64,000 nt of DNA from Rhynchobatus australiae (lineage: Eukaryota): assembly GCA_034780895.1 (NCBI GenBank), contig JAUZTB010000001.1, forward strand, positions 110,255,570 to 110,319,569. The letters run 5' to 3'. Numbering within the stretch: position 1 is the stretch's first letter; every line of letters begins with the position of its first letter. Positions 42,901 through 64,000 of the stretch are shown here, in pieces. A program made the translations under genes and the position numbers. The notes under the pieces are model-generated. The model was not told the DNA's origin. It did no database searches and saw only the letters and a list, made by a program, of their open reading frames with translations.

Positions 42901-45057
42901 NNNNNNNNNNNNNNNNNNNNNNNNNNNNNNNNNNNNNNNNNNNNNNNNNNNNNNNNNNNNNNNNNNNNNNNNNNNNNNNNNNNNNNNNNNNNNNNNNNNN
43001 NNNNNNNNNNNNNNNNNNNNNNNNNNNNNNNNNNNNNNNNNNNNNNNNNNNNNNNNNNNNNNNNNNNNNNNNNNNNNNNNNNNNNNNNNNNNNNNNNNNN
43101 NNNNNNNNNNNNNNNNNNCTGAGATTCCCCACTATCCCAGCCAAGCTAGTACTGCCCATGCATTTTCTTCATCATTTCAGTGAGTTCTGTATGTGAGCCA
43201 GCACATTCTTAAGCAAATGATCCAGTAAGCATGGTTACTGGCTCCTGAGCACAGGCTGTCTGAGTGTCAGCTCTTACTACTTAGCGGGAGTTTTTGAGTA
43301 ACTGAAAGCACAAGTTCAGGTTATCAGTTTGATCAGAGTTGTTGGGGTAAATTGCAGTTTTATTTAGGTAGCTGATGCATTCAAGAAGGAAGCCATGTTC
43401 TTTAAATCTTCGGACTGGAATTGTTGACGCCTCAGGTACTCTGGCTTTACAATGAATGACTGCTGTGTTGACTTTGTCTAATTATAGGGGAGTGGCAACA
43501 GAAGCAATGATGGGCAGCGTCACACTTGGTGGGATAGTTGAGAAAGTCTGCCACAGCCATGGAGAGCGAGACAAGACAGACCAATGACTGACACAAAAAT
43601 GGCTCTTCACTTGGCAAAAAATGTAGACAAATTGGCAGTGTTGCATGATGTTGCTTTACTTTTAACTGGGACTTTGACTGATGAAACAATTGCCAAAATG
43701 TCTGTCAGATTTAAACGGTTGATATACAGTGCCTGTTGACATAAGTGGCAGAAGTGAAAGATAAATGTAATGGCAATGATTCTAAGATAACAACCGATAA
43801 TAATTAATGAGTAAAATCTCACTACAATAAAAGCAATCCGTTGACAGGTAAATTTATTTATATCCAAAATTACTATCCAGAAGTGAGTATTTAAAAAAAT
43901 AAGAAAAAAGTTAAATTGAAAGAGTAAAGGAACACAATATGTAGAAAGATATATCTGTGCCTTTAAGCACATGTTGACTGGCACCGCAGCAACAATCTAA
44001 GATTATAGAAATGTTCTTAGAGTCAATCTGTGTCAATGAACAATGTAGGTCCAATCTGACCATGCCCAAGAGCACGTAAAATTCAGTATCAATCTGCANN
44101 NNNNNNNNNNNNAGGATCTATCAGTGAAAATGAACAACATAGGACCAATCTCTGGCCATGCACCGTGTGGAATCAGTCTGCCGCTATGTACAGTGTAGGA
44201 TCAACCTGCCACTCATAAGACTCCAGGTTTAGTCTGTGATAATGAATGCTGCAGGATAAATCTATCACTATGTGCAGTGCAGGATCAATCTGTGACTATG
44301 AGTATTATAGATCAGTCTCTGAATGTGCATCATGTAGGATCAATCTGTGACTATAAATAGTGTTGGACCAATCTGCAACTTTAAACATAGAATCAATCAA
44401 CAACTACGTGTGGTATAGGATTAACCTGTGACCATGCATATGGTAGAATCAATCTTTTGCTATGAACAGTGTACTATCAAACAGCAAGTATAAATCTGTA
44501 ACAAAAACAGCAAACAACAAAGCAGATCTATCTTTGGTGTAAGATCAATCTGTGCCCATGAATAGTGTAAGATCAATCAGTGGCTGTGAACTATGTAGGA
44601 TGAATCTGCAGCAATTAACAGTGTAATATCATTCTAGGACTATGTACAGTGCAGAATTCATATGTGACTATGATTCAGGAACGACAGTGATGGAGTATAA
44701 TGTAGAATCAATCTGTGATTAATTGCATTGTAGGCTCAATTTGTGAGTATATTCGTGACCACGTGCAGCATCGGATAAGTTTGTGACTATGAGCACTGTA
44801 TGACCATGCAGAGTCTAAGATCATAAACAAGTGCAGTGTCAGACCAGTCTATGACCATGAATACTGCAGGGCCAAATCAGAGCTGTATACAGTCATTAAT
44901 CAATTTATTACAATGAGTACAGTAGGATTAGTCTGTAACTTTGTCCAGTGTAAAATCAATCCATGAGAATGAACTCAGTAGAATTAATCCCTACCAACAT
45001 ACAATGTGGGATCAATCAGCAACTGTGAACATTGCTTCAATCTTGACACTGTGCAAT

Positions 45058-45876
45058 TCCTAGTGGAGTGCCACAGGGACCAGTTCTGGGGCCTTAGATA
45101 TTTATAATCTATATTAATGACTTGGATGAGGGTTCCAACTGCACTGTACCCATATTTGTCAGTGATACAAAGATATGAGGGTCAGCAAATTGTGAGCAGA
45201 TACAAAGAGTATGCAAAGGGATACTAAGTGAGTGGAGAAGTTGACAGAGGAGTATAATGTGGAAAAATGTGAGGTTATCCACTTTGGAAGGAAAAATGAA
45301 AAAACAAATTATTATTTTGTGATACTATAAAATATTACAGTACAAAGAATTCTGGGGAGTATACTCTCATTGGAGGTATAGAGATGGCTCCCTATGGTCA
45401 TTGTTGGTATGAAGGAGTTGATGTATGGGGAGGGGTCAAACAGGTTGGGCCTGCAGTAATTTTACTTCNNNNNNATGAGAGGCAATCTTATTGAAACACT
45501 TCAGATTTTGAGAAGGATTGACAGAGTGGATGCTGAGAGGATGTTTCACACAGCGGGTGTGGCTAGAACTACAGGATATAGTTAAAGAATCAAGGGTAGT
45601 CCACTAAGATAGAGATGAGAAGGAATTTCTTCTCTCAAATGACAGCAACTCTTTGGATTTCTTTACCCCAGAAAGCTGTGGAAGCAGAGTCATTGAATAT
45701 ATTCAGAGTGAAGAGTGACGGAAATTTGAATTGCAAGGGACTCAGCAATATGAGGAGGAAGCAGGAATTGGTGTTGGGGCCAAGACTGGATCAGCCATGA
45801 TCTTACTGGATGGTGGAGCAGGCACAAGGAGCCAATAGGCCTACTCCTGCTCCTGTTTCTTATATTCCTATGTTCA
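45058..45876 (+). mobile_element. CR1 LINE (RT to 3' end) inserted in the 28-bp array
   Basis: SGVPQGPVLGP*IFIIYINDLDEG...DTK, then MRRNFFSQMTATLWISLPQKAVEAESLNIF, and the tail CCTGTTTCTTATATTCCTATGTTC. Confidence 0.9.
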
Positions 45877-46049
45877 TTGTAGGATCCATCTGTGGCTATG
45901 AATATTTTATCATTAAGATGAGATAATGAGCAACATTGGATCAATCTGTGACAATGAATGGTACAGAATGAGTCTATGTTTGTGTCAAGCTTGCTCTGCC
46001 AATTAACAGGAAGATGTCTGAGCTTCCACCACAACATCCTTTACCTACC

Positions 46050-46470
46050 CTATCCCAATATCCCTTGATTCCAAGAATATCCAAAAATGTGACATTCTCT
46101 GTTCTGAATGAAACCATTTAACGAGCCTCCACAACCCTCAAGAGTGGAGAATTCCAAAGATCCACCACCCTATGAGTGAAGAAACTTCTCCTCGTTTCTG
46201 TACTAATTGGCCTCGCCTTTATTTTGAGATCGTAATCTTTAGTTGTTGACTCATCAACCTGGGAAAACATCCTTCCTGTATAAACCCTTTCAAGACCTTT
46301 CATTGTGGTCATCTCTCATTCTTTTAAACCCTAAAGAACAGAGGCCTAGCTTACTCAATTCCTCTTCGTATGACAGACCTGCCATCCCTGGAACCAGTCT
46401 AGTGAATCTTCACTGCACTGCATCCATAGCAAGTATATTTTTGTTCAGGTCAGGAGATTTGAATTGTATA
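46050..46470 (-). mobile_element. CR1 LINE fragment
   Basis: ORF 46118-46312 reads MKGLERVYTGRMF...LKIKARPISTETRRSFFTHRVVDLWNSP. Confidence 0.85.
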
Positions 46471-48299
46471 GTACATCAGGGGAGGCCCAATATATCAATC
46501 TGTGACTATGACTGCTCCAGGATTAAGCTATGAGAAGAGTACCATGGCTATAGGCATTCCAGGATCAATGAATACTCTAGCATCAATATGTGACTGAATA
46601 CTACAGAATAAATATATGACAATGTGTAGTGTGGGGTCAATCTGCCACTGCACGTCAATTCCAGCCCCTCTGTTACAATGAATTCTGTACATTATAAGAT
46701 GTGATCTGTGTACAGTGTGAGATCAATGTAACCATCAATACTGAAGGATCAATTTATGACAATGTACAGTGCAGGATCAATCCATGACCATAAATACAGT
46801 AGGACCAATGTTTGAGATCTGGAATCAGCCTGTGTCTGTGTATAAATTAGGGTCATTCTGCAACAATGAAAATTTTAGGAATAGTTCAAGATCAATCCAT
46901 GATGGTACAGTGCTATATCAAGCAGTCTCTGAATACTTTAAGGGTCTGTGACTATGAATATTGTAGGGTTAAGAGGTAACTATATATATAGTACAGGACC
47001 AATTAGCAGTTATGTATTCTNNNNNNNNNNNNNNNNNNNNNNNNNNNNNNNNNNNNNNNNNNNNNNNNNNNNNNNNNNNNNNNNNNNNNNNNNNNNNNNN
47101 NNNNNNNNNNNNNNNNNNNNNNNNNNNNNNNNNNNNNNNNNNNNNNNNNNNNNNNNNNNNNNNNNNNNNNNNNNNNNNNNNNNNNNNNNNNAAATCAATC
47201 TGCCACTCTTGAAGAATACTGCAAGATCAATCTGAATATGAATGTACTAGGATGAGTTTGCGATTATTAATACTGTCCATCTGTGACTATACACAGATTA
47301 GGTTCAGTTTGCCACTATGGATAATCTAGGGTCAATCTGTGACCATGAAAACTGTAGGATAGATCTGAGACTACTAATGTGTGGGATCAATCCGTAACTA
47401 TGCACAGTGTCAGTTCATTCTGTGACTATGAACTGTATAAAATATGTCTGTGAACCAGACTATGCTATGATCAATGTGTGAGTATTTGTAGTTTGTGATC
47501 AATCTGTCACTATGAAGACAGTGAGATCAATCTGTCACTCTGTCTACATATAGTGCAGGATCAATCTATGACTACAAATAGCATAGGATCAGTGAAATGT
47601 GATATCAATCTGTGACCATATACAGTGCAGTATGAGTCCTTAGCTTGGACTATTCTGGGATTATTGTGATAAAAAGCAGTGTGTTATCAACCTCTGACCA
47701 TGTACAGTATGGAGTCAATCCGTGACAATACAGTCTAGGATCAATTTGCGACTTTGTTCAATGCAGGGTCGAACTGTGACAATGAATTCTGTAGAATTAA
47801 ACATGCCACTGTGAACAGTATAACTTCAACCTGTGAAAATAAGCGGTGCAAGATCAATTGTTGACTTAATAAAGTACAGGATGATTCTGTGACTATGTAT
47901 ACCTTAAGATCCACCTGAAGCTACGGATATTGTCAGACTAATCTGTGACTATGTCCAGTGTAGGATCAATTTGCGACCAGATCAATTTGTCAATATGTAC
48001 AGTTTAGAATCAAACTGCGACCATGTGCAGTGTCAGATCATCTTTTGTCAATGTGCATTGTGAGATCAAGCTGTATTTATGAACAGCATTAGTTCAATCC
48101 AAGTAATGGACATTATTGTGGCTAGGAGTAACACAGCATCAATTTATGACTATAAATAGTGTTGGGTCAACCTAGATAAACTGGAGTGCCATCCTGATTC
48201 TATATGGAGTGTCAAAGTAGCCTGTGAATAGGAACAAAGTAGGATTAATCTGTGGCTGTGCTCATCCCAAATCAATCTGTGATAATGAACACCATCAAA

Positions 48300-49326
48300 G
48301 GAACATGGAAACATAGAAAACAGAAGCAGGGGTAGACCATTTGGCTCTTCCAGCTGTTCTGTCATTCAATATCATCAGGATATTGGAGGAACAGAGGGAC
48401 CTTGGGGTCCAAGACCATAGATCCCTCAAAATTGCCACGCAAGCTGATAGGGTTGTTAAGAAGGCATACGGTGTGTTGTCCTTCATTAGTCAGGGGATTG
48501 AGTTCCAGAGCCATGAGGTAATGTTGCAGCTCTATAAAATCCTGACTGGAACATACTTAGAGTATTGTGTTCAGTTCTGGTCACCTCCATTATATGTGGA
48601 AGCTTTAGAAAGGGTCCAGAGGAGATATACCAGGATGCCAGCTGGATTGGAGAGCATGTCTTATGAGGATAGGTTGAGTGAGCTAGGGCTTTTCTCTTTG
48701 GCGTGCAAGGCAACCTGATAGAGGTGTACAAGATGATAAGAGGCATAGATCGAGTGGACAACCAGACTTTTTCCCAGGGTGGAAATGGTTAACACGAGGA
48801 GGCATAATTTTAAGGTGATTGAAGGAAAGTATAGGGGTGATATCAGAGGTAAGTGATTTTACACTGAGAGTGGTGGGTGTGTGGAATGCACTGCCAGCAG
48901 TGGTTGTGGAGGCAGATACATTAGAAACATTTAAGAGACTCTTAGATAGGCACATGGACGATAGAAAAGTAGAGGGGCATGGAGGAGGGAATGGTTGATC
49001 TTAGAGTAGGTTAAAAGGTCGGCACAACATTGTGGGTCAAAGGGCCTGTGCTGTGCTGTAACATTCTATGTTCTATCATGGCTGATCCTCTATCTTAATA
49101 CCTTATTACCAGTCTTTCCCAATACCTCTTGATGCTTTTGCTTTGATCTATCAACTTCATTCATTAGTGTATTCATCAACTTGGCCTCCACTGTTCTCTG
49201 TTCTCCTCATCTTAGTCCTAAATGTCTTAAACATGCAGATGGAGACCCTCATTCTGGGCTCCCAGCCAATGTAATATCCTCCCTTCATCCGGTCCATCTC
49301 GCCCAGTCAGAACTTTGTATGTTTCA
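48300..49326 (-). mobile_element. Older CR1 3' end, split by a younger CR1
   Basis: Tail GAACATGGAAACATAGAAAACAGAAGCAGGGGTAGACCATT...CATTCAATATCAT (48300-48375) resumes as ATCATGGCTGATC... at 49075. Confidence 0.75.
48376..49074 (+). mobile_element. Younger CR1 LINE 3' portion
   Basis: ORF reads EEQRDLGVQDHRSLKIATQADRVVKKAYGVLSFISQGIEFQSHEVMLQLYK..LEYCVQFWSP..EALERVQRRYTRM. It has a (TTCTATG)n tail and is flanked by a TATCAT direct repeat. Confidence 0.93.
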
Positions 49327-50627
49327 NNNNNNNNNNNNNNNNNNNNNNNNNNNNNNNNNNNNNNNNNNNNNNNNNNNNNNNNNNNNNNNNNNNNNNNNNN
49401 NNNNNNNNNNNNNNNNNNNNNNNNNNNNNNNNNNNNNNNNNNNNNNNNNNNNNNNNNNNNNNNNNNNNNNNNNNNNNNNNNNNNNNNNNNNNNNNNNNNN
49501 NNNNNNNNNNNNNNNNNNNNNNNNNNNNNNNNNNNNNNNNNNNNNNNNNNNNNNNNNNNNNNNNNNNNNNNNNNGTATAATTGATCTGTGACTGTGTATA
49601 GTGTTGCATCAATCTTTGACCTTCAAAACTTAGATCAATTTGCAACTTAAAGTAGTGTAAGAACAATGTGTGGACCAGAACACTCAATAATCTGTCAATG
49701 TCTGGTCATTTCTTTGAGTCTGCACATTTAAGATCACTATGATCAGCAGCGGATCAGTCTGAGACAACATACATTGTAGGATTAATCTGCAACTGTAATC
49801 ACAGTAGGGTCATTATTGAAATGTAAATACCCATATAATCAATCTTTGACTATGGATAGCATAAAATCAATCTGTGACAATGTACAGTTTAAATTAGTTA
49901 TGTGATTGTGTCAGATCAATCCATTAGATCCATCAGATCAATCCATTACAATGTATATTGTAGGACCAATTTCTACTATGCACAATGTCAAATTAATCCA
50001 TGGCTGTATCCAATGTAACAACAACAATGAATATTCCAAAATCAACCTTTGAAAATGAATACTGTGGGATCAATCTGTGACTGGGACTGTGCACAGTGTA
50101 GGATCTTTGACTATGTACAGTAGACGATCAATCTGCCACTATGAGTACTGTAGAATCAATCTGTGATTTTGTGCAGTTTGGTATCAATCTGTGACTATGT
50201 AATCTGTACGATAAATGTGATAAATGAGTTCTCTGGAATCAATCATGAGAATGTAGTATCAATCTGTGAATATTTACTGTGCAGGATAAATCTGTGACTA
50301 TAAGAATAATCTGTGGCTATGTACAGTGTAAGATCAGCCTGTAGCAATGCATAGCACTGGACCAATCCATGAGAATGGACACTGTAGAATCAATCTGCAA
50401 CTATGAACACTCTAAGATCAGTCTGTAACTATGAACAGCATAGAATCAATCTGTGACTGAAAAATGTTGGATCAATTTGTTACCTTGGACATTGCAATCT
50501 GTTGCAATGAATATTGTGTTCTGAATTCCAGTAGCATAATTGGTGAGTTCAGTTAAAGTTTTGCCTACAAAACAATATGTGGGCAAGCCTTATTGATAAA
50601 CATTTGATAATAAAAATCTTTCAACAG

Positions 50628-50650: not shown

Positions 50651-51337
50651 NNNNNNNNNNNNNNNNNNNNNNNNNNNNNNNNNNNNNNNNNNNNNNNNNN
50701 NNNNNNNNNNNNNNNNNNNNNNNNNNNNNNNNNNNNNNNNNNNNNNNNNNNNNNNNNNNNNNNNNNNNNNNNNNNNNNNNNNNNNNNNNNNNNNNNNNNN
50801 NNNNNNNNNNNNNNNNNNNNNNNNNNNNNNNATCTCTGCACAGATGCTATCTGATCTGCTAAGTGTCACCAACACTTCCTGTTTTTAGTGCAGTTATGTG
50901 TTCGACATTTAAAAATCGGCAGGCTGTCCAAGGCTGTCAGGACATTCTGGGATGGGAGCTCAGTGATATCCCACCTGTGTCCTTGTTGCCTCTCTGGTGC
51001 CGAGAGTTAACTCATTCAGCCCTCTGCATACAGAAAATGCAAGGTCTGGTGGGCAGGCACCACGTGTGGTGAGTCAGGTCAGCAAAATCCAGTCTGATAA
51101 AAATACCTGCTTAATTTACAATGATAATCAATCCAGATCCAGCTGCAAAGAAGTAATTGCAGAAGATCTTTGAGTGGACAATTTAACACAGGAAGATTTG
51201 TGCATTTAAGCTCATAGACTGCATTCTGTCACCCAAATAATGTGAAAAGAAGAAAAAATTGAAAAAACACAATTACTATTGAACCACTTCATGATATGTT
51301 GGTGAATGTTATAACCAAAATCTTAATAGTCAGCAAA

Positions 51338-52790: not shown

Positions 52791-54599
52791 AAATGGAAGC
52801 TTCTATAGTTGTTCAGGTACAAGTTGTAGTATTCTTCATTGCCCCAAACTATTTGTAAATTGATCATATCAGAATGTATTTATTGTTATATCTTATTCAA
52901 AGCATGTGTGTAAACCAATGAGGACAATCTGTGAAAGTGAGCTATGGAGAAATAATCTGAACAATGCTCAACCATAATTGGCATGGGAACAATTTGTGAC
53001 AGGGAACTATTAAGGCACAGTATATGATTACTTTTAACATTAAAGAAACTTGTGTTATCTTCAACATGAGCAAATTGTGGACTTAAAAATATACTGAACT
53101 GGTTGTTGAATTAATCTGCAATAATAAATATTAATACATCTGCATTTAAGAACAAACTAGAGCCATGAACAATATATAATATAAATCTGGGATTACTCAT
53201 CACAGTGGTTAAATACTACTTCACTAGAGGCATCCCATCTGAAGTTTCAAACAATGAATTTATCTACTTATATTTCCAAGACAAATTTCAGTAATAATAA
53301 TTACTTATTATTTTCTTATTGGAACACAGACCATGTTCCCTCTGAAAAATACTTAATTATGAATGTCATTACGTAGTTAAATACTGCAACATAAAATGGA
53401 TTATGAAGTTAGAAATCTGACTCCCATATAAAGCCCGTGTCCAAATTGACACTTATGAATCCATCCGATTCATAATAAAGATAACCACAGAGCAAAGAGA
53501 ATTTAGGATACAATTGTTGTTTGCTGAATAAAAGTAATATAATCAATAAAACAGTTTTCATATAATTCCTGAGAGGTTTAATTTACTTAAAAATATACTG
53601 AACATAGCATCTGCAATAATTAGCAATTAAAATAAAACAATGACTCTTTTCTTATATAAAGTACTTTAAAATAATATAGTAGCACTTCAGGTGCTTTCAC
53701 TGGATTAGCAGCAAAGGGTTTGTAATTATGAACAAAATCATAGTAGAAAGTTCAAAATTCCTTCTGACAGATAGAAATATTAAGTATGCCATATAAACAG
53801 TGCAAACTATTTTGTCAAAATGTGAAAACCTATCCAAAGTACCAAGGTGAAGTGAGAATTCAGGAGTGTGTGGGAACAAGCACCATAACAAGTAGATGGG
53901 TAAATAGTTTTGTACATTTAAATGGAGGTTTTTTTTCTGTTGCCCCAATGAAAATAGTATATTATTTCATATTTCCTCTGAAAATTGTTGTTTATGTTCT
54001 GATGATTGAAATAATAATTCTGATGATTTAAAACAAATTCTTAATTCAGTTTATTCAAGTGTTTGATTATTAACACAATAAATTCATCCTGAAAATTACA
54101 ACACTAGTGTAATTTCAGGAATTTTATGTCGCTTCACATTAAGATTAATTTTTTCCCTAAAGTAGGATTTTTGTTTTATTATGTTTCATAACTTGATAAT
54201 TTATAGTATAAAACTTACATGGAAACACAATAAATTGTTGTTTGAGGTGTTTTCAACATCTGAGATACTTCAGAAAATATTATTATTGTATGCTATAAAT
54301 TATATCGACACAAAAATTATGGGAACTTTTATTGTAAAATGCTTTGCACATTGACTTTGATGTAAATATTCTCTACAAATCATACTTCCCTTGTCTCATT
54401 AAAGTTTTTATTTTATGGCAATTTCATATTTTTTGAATACAAAATTGATTAATCTTGAAACTATAATAGATGTAGTGATTGCAAATATGTCATTTCATCT
54501 GCTGCATTAAATTCAATTTTAATAATTGCTAGGAAATATTTTGGAGAGAAACAGATAAAGATATTTATTGTCTCAAGTTCTGACACCTGGTGGAATTGG

Positions 54600-57095: not shown

Positions 57096-60000
57096 GGTTT
57101 TATGGCATATTGGAAAATTACTGTATCTCTTCCAACAATTATGAAGTAAGTGTACAGTAAATGGGTTCTACATCAATTGACACAGAACACATATTGGATC
57201 TGGGTCACAATAATGGACATGACTGGCCAATTCTAAATTAACATTGAGGACTGAAGGGATTAAACTGAAATTCTTTTTCCCCTTCCCTGCACTTGTTTAG
57301 CAAAGATTTTGTTATTTACACTGAGGGATTTCCTCGCAATATTTCGGAGGTATTCTTTGTAATGATGTGAATAACATTGAAGTGTGCAAAATAAACACAT
57401 TTTTATTTCCCAGCAAGCAATGAATATTGAATGGTTGTATTAGTCAGTTAAACTCGGAGTTAGTTTGATGGCATGAATTAAACATTGGTGATTTGTGTAT
57501 TGCCTGGAGTGCAGTAGTTTTTTTTCCCCCACAGTTACTTTGTACATGTGCAAGCATACAAACAGCAATAGTTGTTAGTAAATTGTTCGTTGAGGTGTTG
57601 AAGATGGATTAATTTTCTTTCCTTTCTGCTGATTCCAGTCTATAACAACGACGCTACACACATCTCTTAAAACATGTACAGGTGATGTATTCTACTTTCC
57701 TTTGTGGCAGGAAATAATCTTCATTTAGAATTCAGTAAATATATGTCCAATGTTTTCAGAGGTGTCTGAAATATTTGCGTGGCCAGTAAAAATAAAAGTA
57801 GTAAGTTTATCGGGTAGCACCACTTTAAAATGCTTTTAAGAAACTTTCAGGAAGTTAGTTGTTTCACTGCAGCGTACTGTATCTATCTTTGTAATAAATT
57901 ACGTATTTAATCGATATCTGAAACATCCTGGCATGAAGTTGCCGCACTCGGGTGTTTGGAAGTTTTTAATTGCCTCATTTAAGCTGTAAATCCTAAATCC
58001 ATTGAACATCGTGTCCTTCTTGTTTCCAATAAAAAGCTCCCGAATAGATATTTTGCAACAGTTTGTTTAAATGCCTGCAATTATGCATGAGAAGAAGGAG
58101 AGAATGGGTGGGGTAGAGGAGGCGGTGTGGAGGAGACTTTTATTTTCTCTCCATCTGCTCCATGAACGCAGTGCGGTTGCAGAAGTCTATTTAAGGCAGT
58201 TACTAATAACCTGAAAAGGCTAGTTTTTTTTTTCTTTTTTAAAAAGAGGCGTTTCCGTTCACAATATTATACACAAGGGATTGTATTTTAAAATAATGCC
58301 GGAGGAGAATTGTATTACCATTTGCAAACTGTTGTGATGCCAATATGGATCTATAATTAAATATTACCCAAATTTTAAACTTCACTTTGTACAATTCTCT
58401 GTAAAAACACAAACTATAAACTAGTAATGTTCGATTGCCAATAGGTCTTTCCCGCAGTAAATCACACAAATTGTTCTTCAGCCCTATGTCAGAAGCATAT
58501 TTATGAAAAAAACTTCCTCTTCCAATTATCTATTTCCATTGCCTGCATCTGTACGCTGTATCTGTTAGCTAAGAACTTGCATTTCTTTCCCGGCGCAAGT
58601 TTATAAGTCATATCAGTTGACCGAGGATTCTAAATTTTTTTTGTTATTATAATCTCAACAGCAGCATTGGGAACTTTGCATTGGTTAGTTGCATGAGGAG
58701 CTATTTTAATTTAACAAAAAATAAATACTAAATCAAGCATTTATCACAAGTTTGCACAGAATGCTTCACATTCAGTTTCTGTGAAAAATAAGTTGAACTT
58801 CGATTTAAATGAGGTGGATTAAATCTCGATTGGATTTGTGCATGTAGTTATAATTTGCTCAGATCTATCAAGTAAAACCATGCTGTAACACTAAAGTTCG
58901 GAAGTGTGATTAATATGTTAAAACCTTCATTTCCTGAACGCCGAATTTTTTAACAGCCGAAACTGGGGTTGATATTTAGTGGTTTAATAGTAACCTAATA
59001 CTGTAAAGGAGGAGGAATCACGACTCCTACATTGCTGGTGGGCTGCTTTTAAAAGTGCATTAAGAACATAGACTTGCATGTTAATCATCACCCACGACCA
59101 CTATAATTGTTAATAAACTTTGTTTCAACTGCATGGTAATTTTACTCAGGATCTATTTAATAATGACAAGTAATAAAAAGAGGTTTCAAGTTTATTGTGG
59201 TTCTCTGGGATTGTTTTCCTTTCAGTGCTTTTGCTATTCCAAGCCATTCCAGTTGGCAGATAGGGTGACAAATTCCCAGCTACAGACCACTCCGGCGACG
59301 GTTCAAACGTCGTTATTCACTGACCAACATTGTCGGAACCTGTTTTTTTAAGGGATGATCACGTCACGTTGGCTTTGCAAAAAGTTGCTTACTATTTTAA
59401 TGCAATGCGGGACAGTCTCCAGCAAAATAACTTCGGCTAGAGCTGTGTTTTCAGCTCCCAAATGGACATGGAGGACGAGAGGATCGGGGATAAGTAAAAC
59501 CAATGTTGGGATAATGAATGTTTTCAACAATGTTGAACTTCCATATACAGTGAAATCATCAGGATGTGATCATAAATCTGTGCGAGATCCCACGCTACGA
59601 CTGCTGTGTTGTCCTCTCTTCTGTCTAAATTCCATCTGGTAATACATTTCACAAGCATCAACAATAAAACAGTGAGATTTAGATTCAATTTATCTTAATG
59701 CATCGAGTTTTCACTGCTGTTCACCCGTCGTCTGCGGCTGCGCCACTTAATTCCCCAAAACTTAACAAAACCTCACTGACTTACACCATACCTTCCAGAC
59801 TGTGTTCAATGCAGTGAGAAAAGGTTTACTCTGGAGATCTAGTTTAATTAAGCCGCCTTTCAAAATTTAAAGCCGATACATACACAATTTACATATAAAA
59901 ACCTAACTTTTTTTATTTTAAACATTAAAAATTCAAGTTTAGCCATCCTAAATAAATTAATCACACTGATTCCATTTGGTTCATCCGTTTAAACAGAATC

Positions 60001-60649
60001 ACACAGTCTTGACTCCGTAGCTTTATATTCCTCGAATCTTAATACTGCCCTGGTCATGTAAATACTGTCAAAGAATTCATTTTCTAAAATCAGATTCGGT
60101 CAGCAATTAATATATTAACCTGGTATATTGGAGCTAATGCCTTCTGGTGTTTGGTTGGTATCCTCGATCCCAACAGTAATTGTGCGAATGTTTGGATAAA
60201 GTATGTAATCTTCTTCTGTTGCATTACTATTGAAATATGGCGGATTTTCAATTAAAAGCTTTCTTCAGTTCAACAGTCAATTTCCATAATGAAGACATGT
60301 CAAAAGTGAGTTTACCTTCATTTCCTAATTTTAGCAGTAAAAGTCCAACCTAATCAGTCTGTGAGGTATAATGCAAAATATTCGCATACGTTATAATACT
60401 GTCAGAATAAAAACCGATGTACAACCAACAGCTGGGCGCTTTGTGGTGCTACAAAGAAAGTAAATTATTTTTGCATCAGACATTGTATGCCGTGAAAATC
60501 AGTAGATTGTCCAAATATTGTTTATTTAAAGTCACATTAGCTAATCTGATCTTTTAAACTATTGGCGAATTTCTGATCTAGAATTTTAATAAAAGCGCCG
60601 CTCACAAAAGTGGTATCCAACTGGTATGGCTTAATAACAATTTTAAAAA

Positions 60650-60820
60650 TCTGACATTTAAGTATAAAAACGCTAGAAATTCTCGCAGGCCAGTCAGCAT
60701 CTGTGGAGAGAGAGAGATATGTTTCAGTCCACTGACCTATCTGAAATGTAATCTCAACAGACGCTGTCTGATCTGCTAAGTATGTGCACCGTTTTCTGCT
60801 TTTAATTTCAGATTTCCTGG
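60650..60820. mobile_element. Short palindromic Penelope pLTR-derived repeat, old
   Basis: CAGCATCTGTGGAGAGAG..ATGTTTCAG versus CTGAAATGT..CTCAACAGACGCTGTCTGATCTGCTAAGTAT..TTTCTGCTTTTAATTTCAGATTTCC. Confidence 0.55.
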
Positions 60821-61179
60821 GGTCTCAGTTGTTCTCTTTGTTACAAAAGTGCCATTGCTTGCTGTTTTTATTTGCCCTGATTCCATACATGTGTTATTAA
60901 TAATGAATGTTAAATGTAACAAAACGAGTTACTGATGGCCCGATTTACAAATCAACTTCACCGAGATAGCCAATTAATTAAGGAGGAATTTATGCCAGTA
61001 GTCTAAAATCGAGTGTTGAGTCTTTGAAAAGCGGCACTTGCCTCGAAGGAGTTAACTTGTTTCAAAGGAAACAAGAATAACAACAGTGCAGGCTAGAATG
61101 CTGGAAAATGGGAAACTGGCAAAGCAGGAGAATGAAATTGGCAAAAGGTGATAAGGCAATGGAAAGCACTAGTATGAAG

Positions 61180-61613
61180 TAGTCGCACGCACTCAGCCTC
61201 TCTCTTTCTTACACGCACACACTCACTCACACTTGGATCTGCTTTAGATTGCTATTTTTCCACTGAGCTCGTGTTTCGTTCCTTTTTGTGTTGGCAGCCC
61301 GCTGCTGTGAAGGGATTAAACTGTATAATTTGGAAAGCAGGCATCTGCTCCAGAGCTGTGTCAGAGGCTGATTGCAGCGCCGCGCTGTTCATAACACAAC
61401 TTTATCCCGATTAAAGCAATGAAAAATGCCTCCTGGCAGCTGATGCCCTCGAGTCCCTACCTACCTCTCGTATTTTATGTGGTAATGCATTACAAGACTG
61501 TAAATTTTCCCCATTTACTTTCCTTGACGACTGATAGATTTTTTTTTCGAAATATTCCTGTGAAATTTGGGGAATGATTCTTACAGTTGAGGACTTTCTT
61601 CTTTTCGCTGCAG
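61180..61613 (+). other. Candidate first exon (5' UTR, possibly with a 13-codon start MILTVEDFLLFAA)
   Basis: Lies in the CpG-rich domain with CCAAT/ATTGG boxes at ~60971 and ~61137 and a CT/CA-rich leader. Ends at the consensus donor CAG|GTGAGG (GT at 61614). ATG at 61574. Confidence 0.35.
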
Positions 61614-62599
61614 GTGAGGTGGGAGGTTTTTTTTGTCCCTGCTAATTAAATGGCGTCCGATACTTGGACTAATTAACTAAGAAAAATACCCGTTCTATTA
61701 CCGGAGGAAAAAATGATCCCGTTTTAATCCGTTTTAATGCTTCTGATCGAACGGCGTTCGATGACTTTACGGTCCTTGAGTTCTTATTTTGACCGCCGGT
61801 GAGATGATAGCCGATTTAGACATAAAACTATCCAGATTTTCATTGATTTATACGACTCCTCCTACTTTTCTTCAGTTCAGGAAGTGCAGTCTGTCTAAAG
61901 AGTACATCTGGACCACGAAAATAACAGGTGCCGGGCAAATGTGATCGGATCTACTTAAGGACTGAACTATCAATTTTATTTAATGTGGGGCAGAAGATTA
62001 ACATCTGTAAGAGTAAATCATCAGCTGAACTGCAATTGATGGCAATTGACTGGGTGTAAAGCACCGGGTAAAACGACATCTTTTCATTCCATACTTGCTA
62101 GTTTGTGACATTTCTTGTCAAATATACCAAACTGATCTATATTCCTATGGCTGTTTAAGAAATGCTAGCAAATACATAATTTTGCGTTGACATAAAAGTT
62201 TAGTAGGAATAAATATTGTCTGGTAGATGTACAGTTTTCAGTAGATATACGCGCTTAGTAGTTTGTAAGGTTTTTGTTTTCACATGTTTAAAANNNNNNN
62301 NNNAAAACAGTATCACAATGATCATTTTAAAACGATCTTACAACGTTTCAATTCCATAGGATCCAGGTTTAAATTTTCCTTCCTAGTTTATTTTATTGCA
62401 CTTTGTCAGCAGGGTAACAGCTAGAATGTTAACCCAAGCAGTCAATCAGATCCATTACCCAGGAAGTTGAACGCCGGCACCCATGTCACTGGCATTGGAA
62501 TCTTTCCGTCCTCCTATATACAAAGTTTAAAGTCTCGCCGAGAGTAGAATCAGTTTTCTTTTTTAGAAGATGCAATCTATTTATGATGAATTATGGCAG

Positions 62600-62686
62600 T
62601 GAAGATATTTCAAAAGTAGTCCGACAGTAAACCACTTCGGGGTATCCTGCAAGGCGCTATATAAATGCAAGTCTTTGTTTTCTTTT
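62600..62686 (+). mobile_element. DeuSINE/L2-type 3' tail
   Basis: TTCAAAAGTA...GTAAACCACTTCGGGGTATCCTG.AAGGCGCTATATAAATGCAAGTCTTTGTTTTCTTT is the same tail type as 27310-27373. Confidence 0.6.
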
Positions 62687-64000
62687 AAAACTCTTTGTGA
62701 TACACTGCATAGCTCAAAGCTATGATCTAATTCTTCCACAACCGTGTCTGCATCTAACCTGGACACCAGTTCGTAAAATCTTTATTCTATAATTTAACAT
62801 TCCAATCACCTATAGTGCTACTAATATGAACAAATGCACTTTTATGAATTAGCCCATTGACGTTTTAATTTAACTGTTAAAGATTTAGGTTTATTAAAAC
62901 AAAGTTCTTGAAAAATTCAAAGGTTTCTGATGATTCGTTTTACGGTTCTACAGGGGAAAATATACACACAAGAATTCGCCGACGTAGGAAACACTAGAAC
63001 AAGTTAAAACTTTATAATGATTTGTTTGAATTCCAACAATTTCAATTGAAACAAAAATGTCCTTCAAATAAAAGCTACATGACATTACCTACCAAAATGG
63101 TGACTTTTGAATTTTGGTTAAATGGAAAAAATATCATCTGCAAGTGATCCGTCGCACTCTAATACACAGCGTGGAGTAGGTGCAGATTTATTATGCAGGA
63201 ACGGTTAACAGTGGAAAGCCACAAATACATATTCATATACAATAGTATTTAAAAGTGTTTTCGAATCTTGCTTGTGGGACATGTTTTAATCCCTGGCAGA
63301 ATGATCGTTGGTCGCGCTGCTACATAGAGCACACAGCAAAGGCAACCTAACATTTCAGAGACGAGTTCCAGTCCTGTTGTAGCTTTTGTTAAAATTTAAA
63401 ATTAATAGGGAAGGGAGCATTAGGTACACTAAGTGAATGGATCGAACAAAAAAGGATGATAGATTTCGGTGAAATCATTCGATAAAAGGTAATAACTGCT
63501 CGGATCCATAATAAATAGAATTCCATAGTTTGTGGCGACTAAATATTTAAAACGGCGTTTGTAAAACAAGATCGCAAAGTTAGTAAATGTAGAACACACT
63601 GGAGAATAATACTGCAACATTGGTAAACACAGCTATTTCCCAGTTTTTATAAAATGCACCAGACAAGCAAACCAAAGCATGTTGACTTCTGTTGTCATTT
63701 TAAGTATATCACCATTTATCATTTCAGTTCTGCCTATCACATATTTCTCTGTGTATCTCGGTATTATGTAATTTGTATTCTGGCGCGTTACTGTGTTAGG
63801 AATGGGATACGAACGTTAGCGGTTCACGTTTTCTGCAATTAAGCGGCAAATCTCCTAAACTTGGCTCCAGCAAAGTTTCCAGTCGTGAATGCACCAAGTT
63901 TTGTTATTGCCTTTTGCATTGGCTCGGACATCTGAAGTGGTTTTGACCGGTGTGGCGCTGTTGTGCTTGTATAGATTTTTAAAAATAGACGATGTTGCTC

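What the first reader, a model, noticed from the sequence alone, without database searches (positions are those of the whole stretch)
43990..50517. Cryptic 6.5-kb array of a highly diverged 28-bp repeat
Seen: about 3.7 kb of sequenced array (roughly 130 units, estimated as length/28, plus whatever lies in three gaps) with consensus ~GGATCAATCTGTGACTATGTACAGTGTA. Nearly every unit differs, yet the period and the TCAATCTG..AC.ATG core persist while ~9 bp vary more freely. The tandem consensus has stops on both strands, so it is not a coding repeat. I do not recognise it as a described satellite. Inference: either a fossil minisatellite that stopped homogenising long ago, or a constrained array such as a homotypic protein-binding platform or repeat-domain lncRNA, ~11 kb upstream of a candidate promoter.
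Basis: partly seen in the sequence, partly recalled or inferred. Interest (0 to 1): 0.7.

Follow-up and report, generated by a model that had tools for sequence, protein, structure and literature searches.

The report
Fossil 28-bp minisatellite upstream of OTX2
A 28-letter DNA unit is repeated about 140 times at one spot upstream of the head-patterning gene OTX2 in a shark-or-ray genome; it is likely an old repeat that stopped copying itself long ago and is now decaying at about the pace of the jumping-gene scraps lodged inside it, so it is probably ordinary.

Summary
The array is real: 140 units, 3,687 aligned bases, period 28, all different, 72% identical to consensus, split by three repeat insertions, with a more decayed remnant 2.4 kb further right. 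It lies about 20 kb upstream of the OTX2 start codon of an elasmobranch and next to a conserved single-copy flank. No second array was found in this genome. Neighbouring units are no more alike than distant ones (57%), two founder variants are interspersed at random, and TG/CA covariation points to CpG-type decay. Seven other organisms hold the colinear array; where it could be compared, it diverges about as fast as the insertions inside it (4.8% vs 5.9%; 12.5% vs 13%) and about 2.5-3 times faster than the flank. Best reading: a single-locus fossil minisatellite. Residual hints of weak constraint remain: positions are not uniform under my neutral model, and the ATCAAT hexamer took 1 of 27 recent changes (5.4 expected; p about 0.2 after scanning). 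No expression or chromatin data were available.

The parts
43982..45036 (+). Array segment 1, about 39 units of 28 bp (14 N inside)
   Evidence: the HMM runs on to 45,057, but the last 20 bases read by eye as the start of insertion 1
45037..45876 (+). Insertion 1, dispersed repeat, LINE-like (the label CR1 is recalled, not from a call); 5-base duplication of array sequence at its ends
   Evidence: blastn cover 45,063-45,132 and 45,475-45,875 in an 0.8-Mb genome sample; junctions; colinear in organism F (record 2); no Pfam hit for its one tested ORF
45877..45978 (+). Array segment 2, about 4 units, in phase with segment 1
45979..46493 (-). Insertion 2, dispersed repeat (strand read by eye)
   Evidence: blastn cover 45,985-46,281; thousands-fold summed contig depth
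46494..48292 (+). Array segment 3, about 59 called units plus a 171-N gap of correct length (about 6 units)
   Evidence: record 17
48293..49326 (+). Insertion 3, high-copy LINE-like 3' end plus a further repeat piece
   Evidence: blastn cover 48,371-49,085; summed contig depth above 100,000; no Pfam hit for its one tested ORF
49575..50517 (+). Array segment 4, about 36 units, after a 248-N gap of correct length
   Evidence: record 27
52921..53176 (+). Outlying, more decayed remnant of the same repeat (four profile hits; about 60-70% identity in four aligned units), beyond a 1.5-kb LINE-like insertion
   Evidence: top-4 score 48.9 bits against a maximum of 20.1 in 19,400 background windows (statistic chosen after the hits were seen); alignment; single copy
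43130..43900 (.). Single-copy conserved non-coding flank abutting the array; internal control for constraint, likely an OTX2 regulatory element
   Evidence: unique in the genome; 36 differences in 769 bases in organism F, 48 in 931 (G), 56 in 894 (H)
58000..64000 (+). Start of a CpG-rich domain (runs on to about 82 kb) that holds OTX2; start codon about 6.7 kb beyond the window end
   Evidence: CpG o/e 0.68-1.06 against mostly 0.1-0.3 outside; ORFs in L010; Pfam TF_Otx and Homeodomain; best hits OTX2 of a skate 97%, a shark 96%, a chimaera 93%

Best explanation
This is a single-locus array of about 140 diverged 28-bp units upstream of OTX2, likely a fossil minisatellite that expanded in one early burst, stopped exchanging sequence between its units, and has since decayed by ordinary mutation. 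Shown: period, unit count, star-like divergence, two interspersed variants, three insertions, colinear presence in relatives at a rate close to that of the insertions. Inferred: a small pool of founder units was amplified and shuffled by slippage or unequal exchange; once units differed too much to mispair, turnover ended; point mutation in methylated DNA, small indels and retroelement insertions did the rest. It is still legible because elasmobranch DNA changes slowly and probably because large deletions are rare in the conserved-element-rich OTX2 neighbourhood. It has no sequence-specific job under this reading.
For: Adjacent units 57.4% identical, units more than 30 apart 57.7%, independent-decay expectation 58.2%; no block duplication or higher-order period for blocks of 2, 3, 5 or 8 units (60-181 of 200 shuffled orders reach the score). 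Two linked variants at positions 20/22/24 (39 pure units against 15 expected, 0 of 5,000 shuffles) with no ordering along the array. Strongest column linkages are TG/CA pairs at 12-13, 25-26, 16-17, 10-11; array CpG o/e 0.17. Organism C: array-dominated pieces 135 of 2,840 (4.8%) against insertion-dominated pieces 64 of 1,078 (5.9%), p 0.14; organism F: array 69 of 554 (12.5%), insertion 1 36 of 276 (13%), flank 36 of 769 (4.7%), p 5e-7. G and H array pieces 12.6-18.7%, with further stretches below the 80% floor. Intact TCAATCTG 24 against 21.6 expected. No second array.
Against: Position-wise conservation is not uniform under my neutral model with CpG effect and two founders (chi-square 71 on 17 df; core minus rest 0.097 against at most 0.038 in 40 full simulations; the sets were chosen after seeing the data). 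Transversions are somewhat rarer in the core (8.1% vs 9.4% at A/T, 10.8% vs 14.5% at G/C). ATCAAT took 1 of 27 recent changes (5.4 expected, p 0.019; about 0.2 allowing for any 6-base window) and 8 of 27 changes went toward consensus (3.5 expected, p 0.017). The 27 come from 40 rows shown of 610. Three of four array segments run at 3.5-4% in organism C, below the insertions, and segments differ from each other (6.2% vs 3.5%, p 0.004). The neutral yardstick is only the insertions. The outlying remnant is more decayed than the main array.
Confidence: 0.75

Rival explanations
1. The array began as a neutral minisatellite but now works as a weakly constrained, redundant cluster of low-affinity ATCAAT sites that supports the adjacent conserved element or the OTX2 promoter domain; each unit is dispensable, so constraint per base would be small.
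For: 49 ATCAAT hexamers in 3.7 kb; positions 3-6 lie above the neutral fit (z 0.8-2.6); 1 of 27 and 2 of 33 recent or deeper changes in positions 3-8 (nominal p 0.02-0.03); array abuts a conserved single-copy flank and lies 8 kb from the CpG domain of OTX2; kept in all seven other organisms laid. That ATCAAT resembles CUT-homeodomain sites is recalled; a search for it found no paper.
Against: Hexamer signal is not significant once any 6-base window is allowed (p 0.20-0.27); intact ATCAAT 47 against 39.5 expected, p 0.09; overall rate equals that of insertion 1 in organism F; the Pbx-Hox consensus TGATNNAT (PMC3261376, passages) is not met, the needed base standing in 9 of 129 units; array is CpG-poor like bulk DNA.
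Confidence: 0.15
2. The unit was seeded from a transposable element, most likely the short tandem 3' tail of the abundant LINE family, or is the internal repeat of a lost element; the array is then TE debris.
For: 5 of the 23 single-hit loci whose context I read (22, L009) sit by eye at LINE 3' ends, where a 13-base stretch resembles the unit.
Against: The unit scores no better against 17 LINE tails than shuffled units do (42 and 17 of 300 shuffles reach the score); no repeat body lies 5' of the array, the flank being single-copy; no second array in the genome searches or in 0.8 Mb sampled.
Confidence: 0.07
3. The array is a repeat domain of a long non-coding RNA transcribed from the OTX2 upstream region.
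For: Position beside a developmental-gene CpG domain; an antisense non-coding RNA at mammalian OTX2 is recalled, not tested.
Against: No Rfam match at E up to 1 over 40-64 kb; purine and pyrimidine transitions from consensus are strand-symmetric (A>G 0.10, T>C 0.12; G>A 0.19, C>T 0.20); interrupted by three insertions in both orientations; neutral-like rate.
Confidence: 0.03

Closest known systems
Single-locus euchromatic minisatellite (10-100 bp unit; definition in PMC5615363, passages seen)
   Same: 28-bp unit, head-to-tail, a few kb, one euchromatic locus beside a gene; interspersed unit variants; more diverged units at the ends, as the review says of array ends.
   Different: No longer homogenised: units 57% alike, Tandem Repeats Finder reports only 2-3-copy scraps; unit order is colinear between species, so it does not behave as a variable-number repeat.
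Satellite DNA under concerted evolution, including higher-order repeats (PMC5615363, passages)
   Same: Tandem non-coding monomers with sub-variants.
   Different: About 150 units at one locus, not thousands; no local similarity, no higher-order period; no species-specific homogenised variants seen.
Homotypic binding-site clusters and Pbx-Hox conserved enhancers (PMC3261376, passages seen)
   Same: Many copies of a homeodomain-like hexamer near a homeobox gene, beside a conserved element.
   Different: Consensus misses TGATNNAT by one base; array diverges 2.5-3 times faster than the flank and about as fast as retroelement insertions.

Membership tests
Minisatellite | Head-to-tail unit of 10-100 bp | tested here: met
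   period 28
Minisatellite | Short array at a euchromatic locus rather than a large heterochromatic block | tested here: met
   about 4 kb of array on a 146-Mb scaffold 20 kb from OTX2; gaps of true length
Active minisatellite (VNTR) | Near-identical neighbouring units and ongoing copy-number turnover | tested here: not met
   adjacent identity 57%, no block duplications; colinear in relatives
Satellite DNA family | High copy number or several loci | tested here: not met
   no second array among 30 outside hit loci or in 0.8 Mb sampled; only 3-4 contigs lay at 80% or more in each of F, G, H. Arrays of a few dozen units could be missed by the patterns.
Satellite DNA family | Match to a described monomer in a repeat library | not testable with these tools
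   no Dfam or Repbase here; literature searches named none
Higher-order repeat | Multi-unit period more conserved than the monomer | tested here: not met
TE-internal or LINE-tail repeat | Array embedded in, or attached to, a dispersed element | tested here: not met
   left flank single-copy; tail likeness not beyond shuffles; the repeats inside interrupt units rather than bracket the array
Constrained homotypic site cluster | Motif positions depleted of substitutions between species | tested here: inconclusive
Constrained homotypic site cluster | Overall rate below neutral | tested here: inconclusive
   ratio to insertions about 0.8 in organism C (p 0.14) and about 1 in organism F; strong constraint as in the flank is excluded
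Constrained homotypic site cluster | Open chromatin, factor binding, reporter activity | not testable with these tools
   no such data here
Pbx-Hox enhancer motif | TGATNNAT consensus | tested here: not met
   needed base in 9 of 129 units (motif)
Repeat-domain lncRNA | Transcribed into a stable RNA | not testable with these tools
   no RNA run could be laid
Coding tandem repeat | Open frame across units | tested here: not met
   unit not a multiple of 3; longest stop-free run 64 codons

The most novel reading that the evidence does not exclude
An ancient minisatellite was co-opted as a diffuse, low-affinity ATCAAT booster beside an OTX2 conserved element in sharks and rays: about 50 intact sites held under weak, redundant selection for a few hundred million years, invisible to conservation scans because each unit is dispensable.
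Probability: 0.13. Interest if true: 0.65.

Novelty: new member of a known kind. Interest (0 to 1): 0.25.

Why it matters
As a fossil it matters little for function, but it is a clean natural experiment: about 140 replicate copies of one 28-mer that decayed independently give a context-resolved mutation spectrum and a relative clock for elasmobranchs, with three nested insertions and a conserved element as built-in controls. Nothing like it turned up in 0.8 Mb of other sequence from this genome, so such long, old arrays are uncommon. If weak constraint on the ATCAAT core held up, it would show a route from tandem repeat to distributed enhancer at a key head-patterning gene that ordinary conservation scans would miss.

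Tried and rejected
Coding repeat: stops on both strands. Higher-order period or later block duplication: none. Dispersed family: blastn gave only the locus itself; four pattern searches gave 3, 5, 14 and 9 outside hits against reversed-pattern controls of 1, 27, 9 and 5; all 30 outside loci were scanned and none is an array of this unit; the one double hit is a young 52-bp minisatellite sharing about 12 bases. A profile search of the whole genome was not possible, so small or differently drifted arrays could be missed. Collapsed assembly: gap lengths agree with relatives' contigs. LINE-tail origin: not beyond shuffles. Rfam: nothing. RNA folding of segment 3 gave no shuffle control at that length and is uninformative. 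Expression: no RNA holder listed; this says nothing for or against. Array bins without cover in F, G, H, E are not counted as absence. Absolute dating: the pedigree rate of 7e-10 per generation (PMC10587355, passages) gives an impossible age if applied directly, so it was not used; a search for a per-year rate found no paper. Literature: ten searches showed no paper on this array; PMC11034925 (passages) treats OTX1/OTX2 conserved elements and its passages do not mention it. Most subscription papers, and all supplements, were not seen. Earlier scan notes held nothing on it.
Full report
1. Lag-28 autocorrelation is the top peak in each long array segment and absent from the stretches between. 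The 14-base core has 80 near-matches in the window against 7.4 expected. A circular profile HMM finds four segments between 43,982 and 50,517 with 149 units; 140 have at least 14 called bases (6 are all N, 3 are fragments) and these are used below. All 140 differ; 3,687 bases align; mean identity to consensus is 72%. No reading frame runs beyond 64 codons.

2. Anatomy. Three dispersed-repeat insertions (about 840, 515 and 1,030 bases) split the array. Insertion 1 sits inside a unit with a 5-base duplication and the phase resumes after it (read by eye). I call them LINE-like from recalled features; Pfam found nothing in the two ORFs tested inside the array and only a sub-threshold RVT_1 hit in the repeat at 51.3-52.8 kb. 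Beyond that repeat lies a more decayed remnant at about 52,920-53,180: 48.9 bits against at most 20.1 in 19,400 background windows (statistic chosen after seeing the hits), four units aligning at 17/24, 15/28, 19/28 and 11/17. The array therefore once reached at least 9 kb of present span. More diverged ends are usual for arrays (PMC5615363, passages).

3. Setting. A CpG-rich domain starts at about 58 kb and runs to 82 kb. It holds a homeobox gene whose start codon lies about 20 kb right of the array, with Homeodomain and TF_Otx hits and best matches to OTX2 of a skate (97%), a shark (96%) and a chimaera (93%). The genome is thus an elasmobranch's. The array is CpG-poor (o/e 0.17) like bulk DNA. 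Its left flank, 43,130-43,990, is single-copy and conserved (below).

4. One locus. blastn of segment 4 returns only this locus. Four pattern searches returned 3, 4, 15 and 13 hits in the array and 3, 5, 14 and 9 elsewhere, with reversed-pattern controls of 1, 27, 9 and 5. All 30 outside loci were scanned; none is an array of this unit. In 875 kb of called bases (window included) no other profile cluster and no other long cryptic array appeared; the other periodic signals were microsatellites and short young minisatellites. A whole-genome profile search was not possible, so small arrays may be missed.

5. History read from the units. Pairwise identity is flat with distance: 57.4% for neighbours, 57.7% beyond 30 units, 58.2% expected for independent decay. 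No multi-unit block is more alike than in shuffled order. So no detectable duplication or homogenisation followed the expansion. Positions 20, 22 and 24 form two linked variants (20 and 19 pure units; 39 against 15 expected, 0 of 5,000 shuffles) with no order along the array: the burst started from mixed founders. The other strong linkages are TG/CA pairs, the mark of mutation through a methylated CpG; the orthologue of unit 44,337 reads TG in the window and in organism F but CA in organism H (loose ends, by eye). Distance from consensus is about 0.29 (Jukes-Cantor, 24 columns), an upper estimate because founders differed.

6. Relatives. Runs of eight coded organisms hold part of the stretch; I laid eight runs of seven organisms other than A, F twice. 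All seven show colinear array pieces. On the insertion-free stretch only 2-4 contigs per run lay at 80% or more. Organism C: array-dominated pieces 135 of 2,840 (4.8%), insertion-dominated pieces 64 of 1,078 (5.9%), p 0.14; D is alike and shares most of the branch. Organism F: array 69 of 554 (12.5%), insertion 1 36 of 276 (13%), flank 36 of 769 (4.7%). G and H: array pieces 12.6-18.7%, flank pieces 5-6%; four array stretches of 74-195 bases fall below the 80% floor but keep their length, so these are lower bounds. Insertion 1 is shared with F, and H's contig spacing fits insertions 1 and 2; F and G seem to carry a further insertion near 44,490 (by eye). The array is thus older than the deepest split sampled, by up to about 3-4 times; with recalled elasmobranch rates that is of the order of hundreds of millions of years (inference, not measured).

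7. Tests for constraint, with results on both sides. For: a neutral model with CpG effect and two founders leaves position heterogeneity (chi-square 71 on 17 df; 0.097 against at most 0.038 in 40 simulations). Most of it is single alternative bases at positions 1, 2, 12, 16, 21, 26, 27, as further founder variants or unmodelled context would give, and the excess is mainly transitions, though transversions are also a little rarer in the core. ATCAAT took 1 of 27 changes (p 0.019; about 0.2 for any 6-base window) and 8 of 27 went toward consensus (3.5 expected, p 0.017). Segments differ in rate (6.2% vs 3.5%, p 0.004). Strong constraint like the flank's is excluded; weak constraint is not.

8. 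Origin. Five single-hit loci lie at LINE 3' ends that share about 13 bases with the unit, but the unit scores no better against 17 such tails than shuffles, and no element body is attached. A de novo tandem duplication is the simpler origin (inference).

9. Verdict. Best explanation: a single-locus fossil minisatellite, 0.75. Rivals: weak homotypic booster for OTX2 0.15, TE-derived 0.07, lncRNA repeat 0.03. It fits the minisatellite definition and fails the tests for active VNTR, satellite family, higher-order repeat, TE-internal repeat, Pbx-Hox cluster and coding repeat. Ten literature searches showed no description; of four papers I saw passages only (PMC11034925, PMC10587355, PMC5615363, PMC3261376), of the rest search listings; no supplements. 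No Rfam match. New member of a known kind; interest 0.25.

Noticed in passing
window 43,130-43,900 (and about 280 bases further left, inside the N gap): Single-copy conserved non-coding element directly abutting the array, about 27 kb upstream of the OTX2 start codon; 5-6% divergence where the array shows 13-19%; most conserved in its left 570 bases among the rows shown. Candidate OTX2 enhancer; not matched to any named element.
   Followed up: partly
   Followed up: yes
window 58,000-64,000 and L010-L011: A 24-kb CpG-rich but AT-rich domain (GC about 0.39, CpG o/e 0.7-1.0) over OTX2, with a possible upstream non-coding exon ending at a donor-like site near 61,612 (by eye).
   Followed up: partly
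unit positions 20-28: One founder variant holds a short palindrome of two 4-base arms around one base; the other variant differs at that central base, as a loop inversion would give. Speculative.
   Followed up: no
window 43,130-45,036: Between this genome and F, G, H, A/G differences outnumber C/T differences about 1.7-2.2 to 1 on the + strand; unpolarised and untested.
   Followed up: no
L062 1469-1678: Young 52-bp minisatellite, 4 copies at 95%, each with a CCAAT box, in a CpG-rich promoter-like setting.
   Followed up: no
L134 2159-2309 and 4914-5160: Two short arrays of a young 68-bp minisatellite 2.7 kb apart; a 10-base stretch resembles some units of the 28-bp array, probably by chance.
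   Followed up: no
window 50,890-51,330: Old low-copy repeat with one 70% paralogue on another scaffold, lying between the array and its remnant.
   Followed up: partly
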